From assembly GCF_045037415.1 (NCBI RefSeq), contig NZ_CP173438.1: a DNA stretch of 64,000 nucleotides. One strand, written 5' to 3'. Below are positions 9,001 to 21,000 of this stretch, one piece after another. How positions within the stretch are numbered: position 1 is the stretch's first letter; each line of letters starts with the position of its first letter. The DNA is from Escherichia coli (GTDB lineage Bacteria > Pseudomonadota > Gammaproteobacteria > Enterobacterales > Enterobacteriaceae). Made by a program: the position numbers.

Positions 9001-12000
9001 CGCGCCGTTTGGCGATATGACGGTGAAATGCCATCAGCATTATTACATCACCACATTACCGGGCAGGCAGTGGCCAAAAATTGAGGCATTTATTACCTGG
9101 CTAAGAGAGCAGGTATGTCAGTCTTGTCAGTATCAGTGATACCGGGGATACCGGGGATACCGACAATATGGAAGGGCTCATTGCCCTGAAAACAACATTG
9201 GTGTCGGATGTACCGGGCCGCAGACATTGCGCTCCGTCATTTGTGCGGCACAGCCCATCACAGTGATAAAGTTTCTCAGTATGTATCAGGGATCTACACG
9301 CAGCAGCTTAAGGAGGCCGGATTGCAAGCATCAACAGGGCGTACAGGCGACTCGTATGGCAGCGCGATGGCGGAGAGCATCAATGATCTTTACAAAGCGG
9401 AATACACCATAAGAGCTGGAAAAATCGTGCAGAAGTGGAACTGGCCACACTTACGTGGATGGACTGGTATAACAATCGACGTTTACTGGAAAGGCTGTGG
9501 CACATCCCTCCGGCTGAAGCAGAAAAAGCGTATTATGCTTCTATCGGAAATGATGAGCTGGCAGCCTGAGTTCACAGATAAAACACTCTCCAGGAAACAC
9601 GGGGCGGTTCAACTGACAGACATCACAAATCCCCGGGTGGGGATTTGTGTATAAGAGACAGAGCCTAGCTGGGGGCTGTGCACAAGAAAACGGCTCCCTG
9701 TTGTGGAAGCCGCTATAGTGCCGCAGTTTAAGGACCGGTCAACTGCTCCTTAACTGATCCGCATTGTGCGTGAAAGCAGACTTTTGGGGTCATTACATGT
9801 TTGAAAATACATTCATAATAATGCCGCCACTAATAATCAGCAACATGGAGAATATGGCAGGTAAATCGGGCTTTTGTTTATAAAGAATCATCGAGAAAAT
9901 TGTCACGCCAACAATCCCAAAGCCGCACCAGAGTGAATAGGCAACACCAACCGGAATAGTACTCATTGCTCTGGTCAGAGCGAAATAACACGTTGAATAA
10001 GCACATACCACCAGAACAGAAGGCCACAGTCGCCTAAAACCATTGGTTTTTTTGATCATTGACGTACCGGTTATTTCAGAACCGATGGAAAGTGCCAGCC
10101 ATAAAAATCCAATATTAAACATGAGCAATTCCTTTTGTCAGTTAGCGATTTTTTTATCGAGGTTGGTAACTGGAGTTTCTTCCGCCTCTTCACTGCCCAT
10201 TTTTGAGAACAGATTCATAATGATAATACCGCTGGCTATGATGACCATACCAATAATGGCGGCGGTATCCGGGTGTTGACCGTAAAATAAAATCCCAAGG
10301 GTTGAAACCATCAAAATGCCAGTACCGGACCATGTGGCGTAAGCCAGACCAACGGGGATATCTTTTACTGCCCGTGAAAGCGAGTAGTAACAAATGCAAT
10401 ACAGTACGACGATTAGGGCCAGCAGCAGCGTTTTTGTCATCCCCTCACTGTTATCGAACATTTTAAGTGTGGATGTTGCAGAGGTTTCAGAAAGGATGAC
10501 CAGTAACATCCATAGCCAGCATTTTGTTTTCGAAGACATATCTAAACTCCAGGTTTGTTATCGAGGTAAGGTTATTTTTTCTGTGCTTTCAAAAAATCGA
10601 CCGCAGCATCGGTCAGTACGGCGTCGGGTGATTTTGCCAGTGCCGGATTATTGACGATATCGGTGACAGTCAGATAACGCCGATGATGACTTACAGGCGA
10701 TTGACTGCTGACGTCTGTTGCCAGTTTTTCCAGCATTTCATTCATGGAACATAACGTAATGCCACACTCGCTAAGGCCGGTAAGCGTGGCGGAAAGATGC
10801 GCCGCGTAGTCGCTGTGAACAGTACCGCGAAGCGCGTTTAATTCGCTGTGCGGATCGCAGTAATAACGCAGTGCCAGTACCGGAATACCCGCCAGTAGCG
10901 CATCGTGAACCCTTTGCGCTACCGGGCTTTGCAGCGTACCGTTGACAATATCTACAGCCAGCGGGTAACTCAAAAACGGCAGCAATAACGCTTTATAGGG
11001 CGTTGAAGGCAATTTGTGTTGCCATGTTTTAGCGGGTATCACGTCACCAATTTGCTGCCACCGTTCGCTATCACTGATTGTTTCATCCAGCGCCAGATGC
11101 AACCGTTCGCCACAACGAGCCAACCGCTGATGAATCAGATCCCGATAGCCATCCGCAGATGTCACCATGACCAGTACCGCAGGTTGCAGCCGCTGGAGGA
11201 TCAGGTTGACGATGGTGTCGATCTGTTGTTCGGTCATGATGGCCTCCCTTAGCGAATCAGTGTTACCTGCGCCCCGTTTTTCAGTCCGGCAGCATTGGCT
11301 TCTTCCGTATCGATATGCAGTTCAAGGGCAAAATCATTGCGCACCCGTACCACCACTTCATCGAACGTTAACTGGCGTTCACCATGACTGCGAACACTCA
11401 CCTTCTGCCCATTGCTGACATTCAACAGACGAGCATCCTGGGGAGACATATGAATATGCCGCCAGGCGCAAATGACTTGTGAATGCAACTCAACATGACC
11501 TTTCGGCCCCACCAACAGTGCGTCACCGGCATTTTCCAGTTGCCCGGATTCACGCACTGGCGCTTTAATGCCGAGAGTAAAACAATCGGCACGTGAGATT
11601 TCCAGCTGGCTTGTCGGGCGAACCGGTCCAAGTACGCGGACGTGAGTCAGAGAACCTTTCGGGCCGACAACCGTTACACACTCTTCAGCGGCGAATTGCC
11701 CAGGCTGGCGCAACGGCTTAAAGGGCGTAAGTTGGTAGCCAACACCAAAAAGTGCTTCAACATCCTGTTGCGACAGATGCACATGACGATTAGAAACACC
11801 GACCGGAATAGTGGGAGCAGTATCGATCAGTCGCGTGGTGATTTTTTCCTGTAGCAGTGCGTCAATCATGCTTTCTTCCCTTTCTTATGCCCGTGGCTTT
11901 TCACTTCCACGATGGGGGCTTGCACTTCTTTCTCAGGTACAGGCATTGCAGTTTCAGTATCTGTAGAAACTTCAGCGGTTTCCTCGCAGACAGCCATTTC

Positions 12001-18000: not shown

Positions 18001-21000
18001 ACTCCTCCGCCAGCACAACGTCATGAACGCCTGCACCGACGCTATCGACAGCGACCCAGGAGCGGTCCTTCATCAGCTGTTGGTTATCATCCAGTTGGGT
18101 GATCAACAACAGGTTGCTGCCGCGCAGCTCATCGCACTTTTGCGTGGCGACGACATGTCCGGTTACCTTTGCGAGAATCATCGTTTTTATCGCCTTATCT
18201 CAATGAATTACTTGCCTAAGCGCTCAAGCACCTGGCGGATGACTCGCTCAACGTTCTGCTCGTTGATCTCGCCTTCGGGATCAGTCGTTGCCACAGTAAA
18301 ACGATCATCAGCAGATGTGGTTGCCGGGGCAGGGGAGGTGAAGCGGGCATCGTCAAGAATGCTGCGATGCGGATCCACTATCGGCGCGGCGATGGCTGGC
18401 TGCGGTTCTGCACGGCTACCCGGAGAACGCAACTCATCGATGGAACGCACGCCATAGCCCACTTTACGAATGTTGAGCAGATTCATTGGCCCGACGTTAT
18501 CGGAAGAGGAACCACCACCTACCGCACCGCATCCAAGCGTCAGGGCGGGGGTAATGTTAGTGGTAGCGCCAATACCGCCAAGCGCCGCAGGGGTATTGAT
18601 CAGAATGCGGTTAACCGGTTTTTCAAGGCAGAATTGACGGATCACATCCTGGTTGCGGGTATGGATCACCAGTGTGTGGCCCAGACCTTCGTTAGTCAGC
18701 AACTCCACCACGCGGTGGCAGGCAGCTTTCCAGTCCTCTTCGATATACAGACCAAGAACCGGGCACAGCTTTTCACGTGAGTAGGGGTTTTTGTGAGAAA
18801 CGGTAGTTTGTTCGGCAATCAGTACTCTGGTACTGGCGGGCACACAAAAACCGGCCATCTGGCTTAAATACAGTGCGGTTTTTCCCACCACTTTCGGGTT
18901 AATCGTGCCGTTCGGGCGCAGCAGCAGAGCTGCCATTTTTGCCGCTTCATCTTCGTTCATAAAGTAAGCACCCTGAGCTTCCAGTTCGCGGTGTACTTCG
19001 TTGTAAATGCAGCGTTCAACAATAATCGACTGTTCAGAAGCGCAGATCACACCATTATCGAAGGTTTTGCTGGTGATGATATCTTTCACCGCATGGTGGA
19101 TATCCGCACTGCGTTCAATAAATGCCGGACCGTTACCAGGACCACCGCTGATGGTCGGTGTGCCAGAAGCATATGCTGCTCGTACCATTCCTTCACCACC
19201 GGTAGCCAGAATCAGCGAAACATCTTTGCTATGCATCAGTTCCTGGGTTGCTTCCAGCGTGAGCTCGGTTACACCATCGACAATACCCGCAGGTGCACCA
19301 GCAGCTTCTGCGGCACGCTTAACGACTTCTATCGCCTTCCAGCTACACTGACGTGCGCCGGGATGCGGAGAGAAAATAATCGCATTACCGGCTTTCAGGG
19401 CGATCAGCGTTTTGTAGAAGATGGTGGAAGTCGGGTTGGTTGACGGCACCAGGGCGCAAATCACACCCAGCGGCACGCCCACGTCCATCACTTTTTGCTG
19501 TTGATCGTCATGAATGATGCCGACGGTCTTCATATCTTTGATGGCATCGTAAACACGCAGCGAGGCGAAACGGTTTTTCAGGACTTTATCCTGCCAGTTG
19601 CCGAAGCCAGTTTCTTCTGCGGCCATTTTTGCCAGTGCTTCAGCGTGGTGTGCTGCTTCCTGGGCCACGTTTTTCACGATGGCGTCGATTTGCTGCTGCG
19701 AAAAAGTGGCCATAATCGCTTGCGCTTTTTTGGCGTTACGCACCAGCACCCGCGCGTTCTGACGGGAGCGCAAATCGGTATCCAGTTCAATCATGAGTCT
19801 ATCCTTCATCAGACTAAAAGAGTGCAGACGGGGCGTGCCCTGTCAGGTCATGCTTTATGCTGCGACGCGATTTTTTCGATGTCGTTATGCGGGCGGGCGA
19901 TGACACGGGAGGTCACCACTTCACCGATACGTCTTGCTGCTTCAACACCGGAATCCACCGCGGCATTCACTGCGCCAACGTCGCCTTTTACCATCGCGGT
20001 GACTAGGCCAGAGCCGACGTTTTCATAGCCAATCAACTCAACGTTGGCGGCTTTACACATCGCGTCTGCCGCCTCAATACAGGCCACCAGACCTTTGGTT
20101 TCGATCAGACCAAGCGCTTCTCTCATTATGTTTTCTCCGGTTAATCGGTAATTTTGTAGTGCGAGACAATCTTGTTGATGTCATTGTGTGGACGCGCGAT
20201 AACCAACGACGTCACCACCTCGCCAATGCGCTGTGCGGACTCAACACCGGAATCCACCGCCGCTTTTACTGCGCCGACATCACCTTTCACCATTGCGGTA
20301 ACCAGACCAGAACCGACGTTTTCATAGCCAATCAACTCAACGTTGGCGGCCTTACACATCGCGTCAGCTGCTTCAATACAAGCCACCAAACCTTTGGTTT
20401 CAATCAGACCTAATGCATCACCCATGTTTCTTCCCTCCGGCCTTAAGCTTTATGTTTAATAACGATTTTGTTGATGTCGTTGTGAGGACGCGCGATAACC
20501 AGCGACGTCACCACTTCCCCGATGTGCTGTGCGGACTCAAGTCCAGAATCGACAGATGCTTTCACTGCGCCAACGTCGCCTTTCACCATCACGGTCACCA
20601 GACCAGAGCCGATGTTTTCATAGCCAATCAGTTCAACGTTGGCGGATTTACACATCGCATCCGCTGCGGCAATACAGGCCACCAGGCCTTTGGTTTCGAT
20701 AAGCCCTAATGCATCACCCATGGTGATCTCCTCAGAACAGGTTTTGTGATTCAGGAAAACCGTCCGTGACACAGCGTTAACTCACGGAAGCGGCGTTCGA
20801 ATGTCACTATAGAGCTCATGGAATTTTGTGGAATTTAAATCTGCTGACAGCAATGATTTAGAATTAAATTCTGAAATTTAGCTTTCAATACACTCTGATT
20901 TATGTATTTGTGCTGGAGTGGTGGGGAGGATTTTGTTTTTAATAATGCGCTTTTTGGCGTATTTTTTTCGCCGGGTATGTTTGTTGCTAAGTTGCTAAAT

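What the first reader, a model, noticed from the sequence alone, without database searches (positions are those of the whole stretch)
9793..20772. Complete choline trimethylamine-lyase microcompartment (cut) locus
The locus encodes a long-form CutC (1140 aa, glycyl radical motif RVAGYSAYF), the CutD activase, CoA-acylating aldehyde dehydrogenase, Fe-alcohol dehydrogenase, PduL-type phosphotransacylase, three tandem BMC-H paralogues, one C-terminally extended BMC-H and one BMC-P vertex protein. This predicts anaerobic conversion of choline to TMA, a trait of medical interest. The family is described in the literature; the notable points are the island context and the accessory genes.
Basis: partly seen in the sequence, partly recalled or inferred. 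Interest (0 to 1): 0.45.

Follow-up and report, generated by a model that had tools for sequence, protein, structure and literature searches.

The report
Known E. coli choline-to-trimethylamine microcompartment locus
This stretch is the well-studied Escherichia coli gene cluster that builds a protein-shelled compartment for fermenting choline to trimethylamine; 15 of its 16 proteins are identical to the experimentally characterised strain 536 locus, so the finding is correct but ordinary.

Summary
Window 9793-20772 (minus strand) holds 13 intact genes in this order: cmcA, cmcB, cmcC, cutF, cmcD, cutO, cutC, cutD, cmcE, cutH, a 221-aa ORF, and two SMR transporters.

- **Enzyme identity:** CutC and CutD score above NCBI's curated equivalog cut-offs. 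All CutC-defining active-site residues are present.
- **Already characterised:** The DNA is 100% identical to annotated E. coli chromosomes. Of the 16 RefSeq protein accessions published for the E. coli 536 cut locus, 15 match; only CmcE differs. 321 of 5426 complete E. coli genomes carry the locus.
- **Corrections:** The locus as published has 16 genes. It also includes three regulators at 21241-23178, outside the finding. CutC most likely starts at Met13, giving 1128 aa rather than 1140.

Two side observations:
- The 221-aa "hypothetical" protein has a flavoprotein (HFCD/PF02441-type) fold with an encapsulation-peptide-like N-terminus. Its Pfam-detectable relatives also sit directly after the PduL gene in other glycyl-radical microcompartment loci.
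- The 13.8-kb cut module lies between inverted IS3 arms and occurs in both orientations among E. coli genomes (about 215 versus 75).

Verdict: already known, low interest.

The parts
22600..23178 (-). TetR/AcrR-family regulator, first gene of the published 16-gene cut locus; outside the finding's interval
   Evidence: NCBIfam TetR-family hits, including BetI at 4e-10. RefSeq WP_000926369.1 is the same accession as in E. coli 536. A TetR regulator is described as typical of type II clusters in PMC4453576.
21759..22577 (-). Membrane-anchored winged-helix (ToxR/CadC-like) regulator, 272 aa
   Evidence: Pfam Trans_reg_C at residues 29-96, E 8e-7. Weak CadC/PhoB hits. One hydrophobic segment at about residues 152-180. 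WP_001270145.1 is identical to 536.
21241..21759 (-). FidL-like protein with an N-terminal hydrophobic anchor; its start overlaps the end of the winged-helix regulator gene
   Evidence: RefSeq product name 'FidL-like protein', WP_001217008.1, identical to 536. No NCBIfam family. N-terminal hydrophobic stretch.
20443..20721 (-). cmcA, BMC-H shell hexamer (92 aa)
   Evidence: EutM-like, E 2e-28. Start ATG at 20721 with GAGGAG upstream. WP_000502008.1.
20141..20425 (-). cmcB, BMC-H shell hexamer (94 aa), reported as the main choline pore
   Evidence: EutM-like, E 6e-32. Best PDB match is 7mpw, the CmcB crystal structure (PMC10710832). Pore residues K11, E35 and S39 are present.
19848..20126 (-). 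cmcC, BMC-H shell hexamer (92 aa)
   Evidence: EutM-like, E 7e-32. The direct repeats reported for 536 cmcABC occur here with 299- and 595-bp spacing.
18208..19794 (-). cutF, CoA-acylating acetaldehyde dehydrogenase (528 aa by the RefSeq start) with a C-terminal encapsulation-peptide-like tail
   Evidence: TIGR02518, 713 bits against a cut-off of 620. The tail NEQNVERVIRQVLERLG is identical to the K. pneumoniae CutF EP-like sequence.
17924..18181 (-). cmcD, BMC-P pentamer (vertex) protein, 85 aa
   Evidence: CcmL/EutN hits. PDB 6qn1 GRM2 shell pentamer, E 6e-47.
16754..17908 (-). cutO, iron-type alcohol dehydrogenase (384 aa by the RefSeq start)
   Evidence: Fe-ADH family hits. WP_001288714.1.
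13341..16727 (-). cutC, long-form choline trimethylamine-lyase (1128 aa from Met13; the mechanical ORF runs to 16763)
   Evidence: TIGR04394, 1673.7 bits against a cut-off of 1050. PDB 9f3w/5a0u K. pneumoniae CutC. Active-site residues conserved. The N-terminal ~330 aa is a partial duplicate of the catalytic part, E 3e-18.
12342..13289 (-). cutD, radical-SAM activating enzyme of CutC
   Evidence: TIGR04395, 414.9 bits against a cut-off of 360. The CNLRCPWC cluster motif and two ferredoxin-type Cys motifs are visible in the translation.
11866..12330 (-). cmcE, BMC-H with a ~65-aa acidic/lysine-rich C-terminal tail
   Evidence: BMC hits at E 4.5e-15. WP_001086629.1 here against WP_001086628.1 in 536, the only protein of the 16 whose accession differs.
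11249..11869 (-). cutH, PduL-type phosphotransacylase
   Evidence: NF011652, 278 bits against a cut-off of 209. N-terminal MIDALLQEKITTRL resembles the K. pneumoniae CutH EP-like sequence.
10572..11237 (-). 221-aa 'hypothetical' protein: flavoprotein-fold protein with an encapsulation-peptide-like N-terminal helix
10138..10539 (-). SMR-family transporter subunit, 133 aa
   Evidence: Qac/EmrE-family hits at E 2e-26. The membrane-embedded Glu is retained. WP_000095890.1.
9793..10122 (-). SMR-family transporter subunit, 109 aa, 43% identical to its neighbour
   Evidence: EmrE/Qac hits at E 6e-26. Paralogue comparison. WP_000481835.1.
9689..9714 (-). Terminator-like hairpin after the last gene
   Evidence: Pattern scan only, and the count is not above chance for the region.
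9234..9611 (+). IS3-family fragment (3' part of orfB), the left inverted arm
   Evidence: IS3 transposase hit. RefSeq annotates a pseudogene. Inverted repeat with 23427-23808, 82-93% complementary.
23427..24736 (-). Intact IS3-family element; its 3' end is the right inverted arm
   Evidence: NF033516, 299 bits. ALIL frameshift pseudoknot at 24285-24401. Element extent taken from matches in other records.

Best explanation
This is the type II (GRM2) choline-utilisation (cut) locus of Escherichia coli, essentially the allele studied in strain 536.

Proposed pathway:
1. Choline enters the cell and then a polyhedral protein shell made of the CmcA, CmcB, CmcC and CmcE hexamers and the CmcD pentamers.
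2. CutD uses S-adenosylmethionine to install a glycyl radical on Gly1103 of CutC (1128-aa numbering).
3. CutC, through Cys771, cleaves the C-N bond of choline to give trimethylamine and acetaldehyde.
4. The acetaldehyde is kept inside the shell. CutF converts part of it to acetyl-CoA, making NADH. CutO reduces the rest to ethanol, regenerating NAD+.
5. CutH turns acetyl-CoA into acetyl-phosphate and recycles CoA. Acetyl-phosphate then yields ATP in the cytoplasm.

The two SMR proteins probably form a heterodimeric carrier for a small ammonium cation (choline in, or TMA out). The TetR-type regulator and the ToxR-like/FidL-like pair control expression.

Shown here: the gene content, the family assignments, the active-site residues, and the identity to the characterised locus. 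Taken from the literature: activity, compartment formation and the CmcB pore role. Inferred: the transporter substrate, the regulator logic and the role of the 221-aa protein.
For: - **Family assignments:** NCBIfam equivalog scores are above the curated cut-offs for CutC, CutD, CutF and PduL.
- **Similarity to solved CutC:** CutC aligns over its full length to solved K. pneumoniae CutC at 2403 bits.
- **Active site:** It keeps Tyr208, Asp216, Phe395, Cys489, Glu491, Thr502, Tyr506 and Gly821 of D. alaskensis CutC.
- **Identity to annotated genomes:** Window 9700-23300 is 100% identical to annotated E. coli chromosomes.
- **Identity to strain 536:** 15 of 16 RefSeq protein accessions equal those published for the 536 cut locus. 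The 536-specific cmcABC direct repeats are present at the reported spacings.
- **Published function:** Choline-stimulated anaerobic growth, acetaldehyde production, compartments by electron microscopy and the CmcB pore role are in PMC10710832. The encapsulation hierarchy is in PMC6971018. The regulators and putative transporters are reported as important for TMA generation in 536.
Against: - Nothing in the sequence argues against it: every ORF is intact and none is flagged as a pseudogene in RefSeq.
- No experiment was done on the strain the window comes from.
- CmcE differs from the 536 protein, having a different WP accession.
- The primary 536 paper (Herring 2018) could not be read, so statements about it are second-hand.
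Confidence: 0.97

Rival explanations
1. The glycyl radical enzyme has another substrate (for example 1,2-propanediol or glycerol dehydratase, hydroxyproline dehydratase, or isethionate lyase), and the compartment handles a different aldehyde.
For: Those families also give strong hits, because all glycyl radical enzymes are related: PFL2/glycerol dehydratase 764 bits and sulfopropanediol dehydratase 703 bits. RefSeq names the alcohol dehydrogenase 'PduQ' and the PTAC 'phosphate propanoyltransferase'.
Against: - The CutC model scores 1673.7 bits, far above the next family and above its cut-off.
- All choline-specific residues are present.
- A GRE from a different GRM locus (L004) lacks GGGD, GYQPF and WTSTGY, which shows these motifs discriminate.
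- The protein is identical to the one assayed in the literature.
Confidence: 0.01
2. The locus is a decaying island remnant that is no longer expressed or functional in this strain.
For: - It sits in an island full of IS elements and pseudogenes.
- It is bracketed by IS3 sequences.
- The promoter scan found nothing above chance.
Against: - All 16 genes are intact and 15 are identical to the functional 536 proteins.
- The sequence is conserved at 99% or more in 321 genomes, which is not the pattern of decay.
Confidence: 0.02
3. The IS3-bracketed 13.8-kb segment is an active composite transposon that moves the cut genes between replicons.
For: - Inverted IS3-family arms flank exactly the 16 genes.
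- The segment is found in both orientations.
Against: - One arm is only a 378-nt fragment without a transposase, and the arms are 82-93% alike rather than identical.
- In both orientations the outer flanks are the same (dsdC on one side, MalY/NhaC on the other). That fits inversion by recombination, not transposition.
- No plasmid in PLSDB carries 80% or more of the segment.
Confidence: 0.03

Closest known systems
E. coli 536 cut locus (16 genes; Herring et al. 2018, Ochoa et al. 2023 PMC10710832)
   Same: Same gene order. 15 of 16 proteins have identical RefSeq accessions. The same cmcABC direct repeats and pore residues K11, E35 and S39 are present.
   Different: CmcE has a different accession (WP_001086629.1 against WP_001086628.1). 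The orientation of the module relative to its flanks was not determined for 536.
Klebsiella pneumoniae GRM2 locus (Kalnins et al. 2015, 2020; PDB 5a0u, 9f3w, 6qn1)
   Same: Same architecture: long-form CutC of 1128 aa, four BMC-H and one BMC-P with no BMC-T, and an identical CutF C-terminal EP-like tail.
   Different: An orthologue rather than the same allele. DNA identity is about 82%. The 221-aa protein is only about 64% identical to its Klebsiella counterparts.
Type I / GRM1 cut clusters (Desulfovibrio, Firmicutes)
   Same: Same chemistry and the same CutC active-site residues.
   Different: Per PMC4453576 and PMC6325248, type I clusters have about 20 genes, a short-form CutC with a short N-terminal encapsulation peptide, usually PduS/PduT or GrpU, and a MerR-type regulator. 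None of these is present here.
BMC-associated PF02441 flavoproteins (for the 221-aa ORF)
   Same: Same fold. Same position directly after the PduL/PTAC gene. Same N-terminal amphipathic helix and the same conserved C-terminal T...LTDxA module.
   Different: No Pfam hit for the E. coli protein. In alignment A2, residues shared by most PF02441-positive relatives in the central P-x-L-T-x-N-x-x-A-K...G-I-x-D stretch are replaced in the E. coli protein. That these positions are flavin contacts is from memory of the HFCD family.

Membership tests
Choline trimethylamine-lyase CutC | Glycyl radical motif with the radical-bearing Gly (Gly821 in D. alaskensis) | tested here: met
   RVAGYS, with the Gly at residue 1115 of the ORF, or 1103 in 1128-aa numbering.
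Choline trimethylamine-lyase CutC | Catalytic Cys489 and Glu491 in the GCVEP loop | tested here: met
   GCVEP is aligned to the D. alaskensis loop, giving Cys771 and Glu773 in 1128-aa numbering.
Choline trimethylamine-lyase CutC | Choline-binding Asp216 and Phe395 (plus Tyr208, Thr502, Tyr506) | tested here: met
   All are conserved in the HMMER alignment to PDB 5fau. The residue list comes from PMC4453576; Tyr208, Thr502 and Tyr506 are from memory of Bodea et al. 2016.
Choline trimethylamine-lyase CutC | Score above the curated equivalog cut-off | tested here: met
   TIGR04394, 1673.7 bits against 1050.
Choline trimethylamine-lyase CutC | Converts choline to TMA and acetaldehyde | not testable with these tools
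   CutC has the same accession as in E. coli 536. Knockout and complementation of the 536 GRM2 enzyme are cited in PMC6325248.
CutD activating enzyme | Radical-SAM CX3CX2C cluster and an equivalog score above cut-off | tested here: met
   CNLRCPWC is in the translation. TIGR04395, 414.9 bits against 360.
Type II cut cluster / GRM2 microcompartment locus | Long (~340 aa) N-terminal extension of CutC that is a partial duplicate of the following region | tested here: met
   BLASTP of residues 13-341 against the rest gives 28% identity over 206 aa, E 3e-18. Described in PMC6971018 and PMC6325248.
Type II cut cluster / GRM2 microcompartment locus | Four BMC-H and one BMC-P, no BMC-T | tested here: met
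   four single-domain BMC proteins, one EutN/CcmL protein, and no tandem-BMC ORF.
Type II cut cluster / GRM2 microcompartment locus | Aldehyde-processing core: acylating AldDH, Fe-ADH and PduL-type PTAC | tested here: met
Type II cut cluster / GRM2 microcompartment locus | No PduS, PduT or GrpU; TetR-type regulator; two SMR/multidrug-type transporters; gammaproteobacterial host | tested here: met
   The criteria are from PMC4207490, PMC4453576 and PMC6325248.
Type II cut cluster / GRM2 microcompartment locus | Forms polyhedral compartments | not testable with these tools
   Reported for E. coli 536 by electron microscopy.
HFCD / PF02441 flavoprotein family (221-aa ORF) | Rossmann-like flavoprotein fold | tested here: met
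HFCD / PF02441 flavoprotein family (221-aa ORF) | Match to the Pfam model PF02441 | tested here: not met
   No hit for this protein or any of 21 close homologues. Distant relatives found with the family profile do carry PF02441.
HFCD / PF02441 flavoprotein family (221-aa ORF) | Flavin-binding residues, and flavin actually bound | tested here: inconclusive
   In alignment A2 the P and L of the central motif are invariant and the G nearly so. The T, N, K and D shared by most PF02441-positive relatives are replaced in the E. coli protein. Binding itself cannot be tested here.
Composite transposon | Two functional, near-identical IS copies, and the unit found at different sites | tested here: not met
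   One arm is a 378-nt fragment and the arms are 82-93% alike. The outer flanks are the same in both orientations. The unit is absent from plasmids.

The most novel reading that the evidence does not exclude
The 221-aa ORF (10572-11237) is annotated as hypothetical, and a published account of GRM2 ancillary genes lists only transcription factors and two multidrug-resistance proteins (PMC4207490). It may be a diverged, lumen-targeted member of the microcompartment-associated flavoprotein family that always follows the PduL gene. If so, it could be the missing internal electron carrier, or a flavin-less scaffold derived from one, that lets CutD keep CutC activated inside a shell lacking PduS, PduT and GrpU. 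That would address the open question, raised in the GRM review PMC6325248, of how GRM2 enzymes are activated.
Probability: 0.2. Interest if true: 0.45.

Novelty: already known. Interest (0 to 1): 0.1.

Why it matters
Choline-derived trimethylamine is the precursor of TMAO, which is linked to cardiovascular disease. The locus is also a model microcompartment. All of this is established for this very allele, so the window adds no new biology on the main point.

The modest additions concern details:
- A fold and family assignment, with conserved gene position, for the one unassigned gene of the locus.
- A common IS3-mediated inversion of the whole module within an island that ends next to cadC.
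- A count of carriage: 321 of 5426 complete E. coli genomes, about 6%.

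Tried and rejected
- **Papers not held:** Herring 2018 (PMC5915781) and Zarzycki 2015 (PMC4644659) could not be read. Statements about 536 genetics rest on later papers that cite them.
- **221-aa ORF by sequence:** Sequence-based searches for a family or a solved relative were all uninformative: Pfam, NCBIfam, PADLOC, and a PDB sequence search that returned only designed proteins. Fold comparison and a profile search were needed instead.
- **FidL-like protein:** It has no solved relative by sequence.
- **Promoter and terminator scan:** Counts were at or below chance, so no promoter is claimed.
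- **Rfam:** Only the IS3 ALIL pseudoknot was found, with no leader RNA upstream of cmcA.
- **Island attachment site:** ARAGORN found no tRNA, and a tRNA-Phe 3'-end search found no remnant in the window. The attachment site was therefore not established.
- **Plasmid carriage:** None of the records held 80% or more of the locus. The largest matches were in chromosome-sized records or fragmentary.
- **Full-length CutC structure paper:** A literature search for the paper behind PDB 9f3w was unproductive, as was a search for SMR-choline work.
- **Composite-transposon reading:** Rejected; see the rival explanations.

Full report

Yes. The minus strand between 9793 and 20772 carries thirteen contiguous ORFs. 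NCBIfam gives the following:
- CutC: TIGR04394, 1673.7 bits against a curated cut-off of 1050.
- CutD: TIGR04395, 414.9 bits against 360.
- Acylating acetaldehyde dehydrogenase: TIGR02518, 713 bits against 620.
- PduL-type phosphotransacylase: NF011652, 278 bits against 209.
- An iron-type alcohol dehydrogenase.
- Three short BMC-H proteins.
- A 154-aa BMC-H with a tail.
- An 85-aa EutN/CcmL pentamer protein.

The motif RVAGYSAYF is at residues 1112-1120 of the 1140-aa ORF.

**2. Corrections of detail**
- The 1140-aa figure is the longest mechanical ORF. RefSeq annotates 1128 aa. The K. pneumoniae CutC structure chain 9f3w aligns from query residue 13, at its own MAHYNLTPRV. I therefore place cutC at 13341-16727.
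- cmcA begins at the ATG at 20721, seven bases after GAGGAG, not at the GTG at 20772.
- RefSeq starts also shorten cutF to 528 aa, cutO to 384 aa and the last SMR gene to 109 aa.

**3. Is it really CutC?**

In the HMMER alignment to D. alaskensis CutC (PDB 5fau), the chain numbering is offset by +3 from the native numbering. With that offset, native Tyr208, Asp216, Phe395, Cys489, Glu491, Thr502, Tyr506 and Gly821 all align to identical residues. In 1128-aa numbering these are Tyr490, Asp498, Phe677, Cys771, Glu773, Thr784, Tyr788 and Gly1103.

Asp216, Phe395, Cys489, Glu491 and Gly821 are the residues used in PMC4453576 to separate CutC from other glycyl radical enzymes. As a negative control, a GRE from an unrelated GRM locus fetched later (L004) is 32% identical. 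It lacks GGGD, GYQPF and WTSTGY while keeping GCVEP and RVAGYS.

**4. It is the characterised allele**
- Window 9700-23300 is 100% identical over 13,601 bases to many annotated E. coli chromosomes. 321 of 5426 complete genomes hold at least 80% of it at 99% identity or more.
- In strain 4/0 the RefSeq accessions of the sixteen proteins, from the TetR regulator to the last SMR gene, equal those printed in the Fig. 1 legend of Ochoa et al. 2023 for the E. coli 536 cut locus. The one exception is CmcE: WP_001086629.1 here, WP_001086628.1 in 536.
- Four direct repeats that the paper reports in the 536 cmcABC genes are all present, spaced 299 or 595 bp apart. Those are the sizes of the deletions the authors saw.
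- The pore residues they mutated (K11, E35, S39) are in place.
- CmcB's best PDB match is 7mpw, the structure used in that paper. CmcD matches the pentamer of the K. pneumoniae GRM2 shell, 6qn1.

**5. How it works**

The steps below are established for the 536 and Klebsiella systems and carried over by identity:
1. Choline crosses the shell, mainly through CmcB.
2. CutD-activated CutC splits it into TMA and acetaldehyde.
3. CutF and CutO dismutate the aldehyde to acetyl-CoA and ethanol, recycling NAD(H) inside.
4. CutH makes acetyl-phosphate and recycles CoA.

Kalnins et al. concluded that the catalytic part of CutC mediates its own and CutO's encapsulation. They also concluded that the N-terminal extension mediates CutF's interaction with CutC, which cross-links and enlarges the core; CutF encapsulation itself remained uncertain in their recombinant system. 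I confirmed that the extension is a partial duplicate of the following region: 28% identity over 206 aa, E 3e-18. I also confirmed that the CutF tail NEQNVERVIRQVLERLG is identical to the Klebsiella sequence.

**6. Regulators**

The three upstream genes lie outside the finding:
- A TetR-family protein.
- A 272-aa protein with an N-terminal winged helix (Pfam Trans_reg_C, E 8e-7) and one hydrophobic segment, which is a ToxR/CadC-like layout.
- An overlapping FidL-like protein with an N-terminal anchor.

These assignments rest. A later paper states that genetic work in 536 found the regulators and putative transporters important for TMA generation. How they sense choline is not addressed here.

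**7. The one unassigned gene**

The 221-aa ORF has no Pfam, NCBIfam or PADLOC match. A published account of GRM2 ancillary genes lists only transcription factors and two multidrug-resistance proteins.
- **Close homologues:** They are confined to Enterobacterales at about 60% identity or more in the rows shown.
- **Distant relatives:** A profile search of 1.8 billion representatives found relatives. I looked up the genomic context of three of them.
- **Conserved position:** All three carry PF02441 and are encoded immediately after a PduL/PTAC gene in GRE-microcompartment loci. One locus (L005, 35% G+C) has a long-form CutC that is 68% identical to this one, with all motifs. Gene position is therefore conserved from bona fide flavoproteins to the E. 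coli protein.
- **Encapsulation peptide:** The N-terminal helix (residues 3-17, EQQIDTIVNLILQRLQ) resembles the CutF encapsulation-like peptide. It is matched by similar amphipathic helices in the relatives.
- **Flavin binding is open:** Several residues shared by most PF02441-positive relatives in the central motif are replaced in the E. coli protein. That those positions are flavin contacts is from memory of the HFCD family.
- **Possible relevance:** The GRM review notes that GRM2 lacks PduS, PduT and GrpU and asks how its enzyme is activated. An encapsulated flavoprotein relative is a candidate answer, but this is inference only.

**8. Island context**
- **Surroundings:** The locus lies in a mosaic island that also carries a dsdCXA copy (5294-9139), a two-partner-secretion gene at the window start, MalY/NhaC, a CP4-like module with CbtA/CbeA, and IS21. 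It ends at an integrase fragment next to cadC at about 47 kb. No tRNA or tRNA-Phe remnant is in the window.
- **Bracketing repeats:** The sixteen genes are bracketed by inverted IS3-family arms, 9234-9611 and 23427-23808, which are 82-93% complementary. One arm is a fragment. The other is the end of an intact element with its ALIL pseudoknot.
- **Inversion:** In strain CREC-U3 the flanks align to the window in one orientation and the inner 14.5 kb in the other, with breakpoints inside the arms.
- **Frequency:** Junction-spanning queries count 215 genomes with the window's orientation and 75 with the flipped one, out of 321 carriers.
- **Interpretation:** This is an inversion by recombination between the arms, not transposition. 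The outer flanks are unchanged and no plasmid carries the unit. The promoter region and the regulators move with the module, so an effect on expression is not expected, though it was not tested.

**9. Verdict**

The feature is already known in the strongest sense: apart from CmcE, the proteins are identical to those already characterised. Interest is low. The flavoprotein-fold assignment and the inversion polymorphism are minor additions that could be followed up cheaply.

Noticed in passing
window 9234-9611 and 23427-23808 (arms); module 9612-23426; compare L003 9001-23558: The whole 16-gene cut module sits between inverted IS3-family arms and is found flipped relative to identical flanks in other E. 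coli. Junction counts are about 215 genomes in the window's orientation and about 75 inverted, of 321 carriers.
   Followed up: yes
window 10572-11237 (-): The only unassigned gene of the locus has a flavoprotein (HFCD/PF02441-type) fold and an encapsulation-peptide-like N-terminal helix. PF02441-positive distant relatives occupy the same position, directly after the PduL gene, in three other GRE-microcompartment loci.
   Followed up: yes
L005 833-8753: A 35% G+C metagenome-assembled genome has a long-form CutC (1129 aa, 68% identical, all motifs). Its accessory set differs: an EamA transporter instead of the SMR pair, a histidine kinase with an AraC-type response regulator instead of the TetR and ToxR-like regulators, and a Pfam-detectable flavoprotein after PTAC. 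This is a GRM2-like variant whose host taxon was not identified.
   Followed up: partly
window 5294-9139: A dsdA-dsdX-dsdC (D-serine utilisation) set lies directly beside the cut module, inside what looks like island DNA between phage/island-type genes and the IS3 fragment. From memory, some extraintestinal E. coli carry a second, island-borne dsdCXA copy; this was not checked for this genome.
   Followed up: no
window about 46588-46747 and 47007-48545: The island appears to end at a frameshifted tyrosine-recombinase fragment next to cadC. No tRNA gene or tRNA-Phe 3' remnant is present in the window, so the attachment site remains unidentified.
   Followed up: partly
window 19848-20721: cmcA, cmcB and cmcC are 81-88% identical tandem paralogues with exact direct repeats of 14-38 bp spaced 299 and 595 bp apart. 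These are the repeats reported to cause deletions during recombineering in strain 536, so natural copy-number variants of these shell genes may exist.
   Followed up: partly
window 25156-27778: A MalY/PatB-family C-S lyase gene and an NhaC antiporter gene form a pair just beyond the intact IS3 element. They keep their position in both orientations of the cut module.
   Followed up: no
window about 39755-40556: A CbeA/CbtA type IV toxin-antitoxin pair lies within a CP4-like block (antirestriction, DUF932, JAB-domain genes), next to an IS21 (ISEc10) element.
   Followed up: no
window about 57000-64000: G+C falls to 30-38% at the end of the window. The matching genome annotates a 1309-aa autotransporter, an AraC-family regulator and the start of an S6-family peptidase there. 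This looks like a separate low-G+C islet beyond the cad-lysS-ghoST backbone genes.
   Followed up: no
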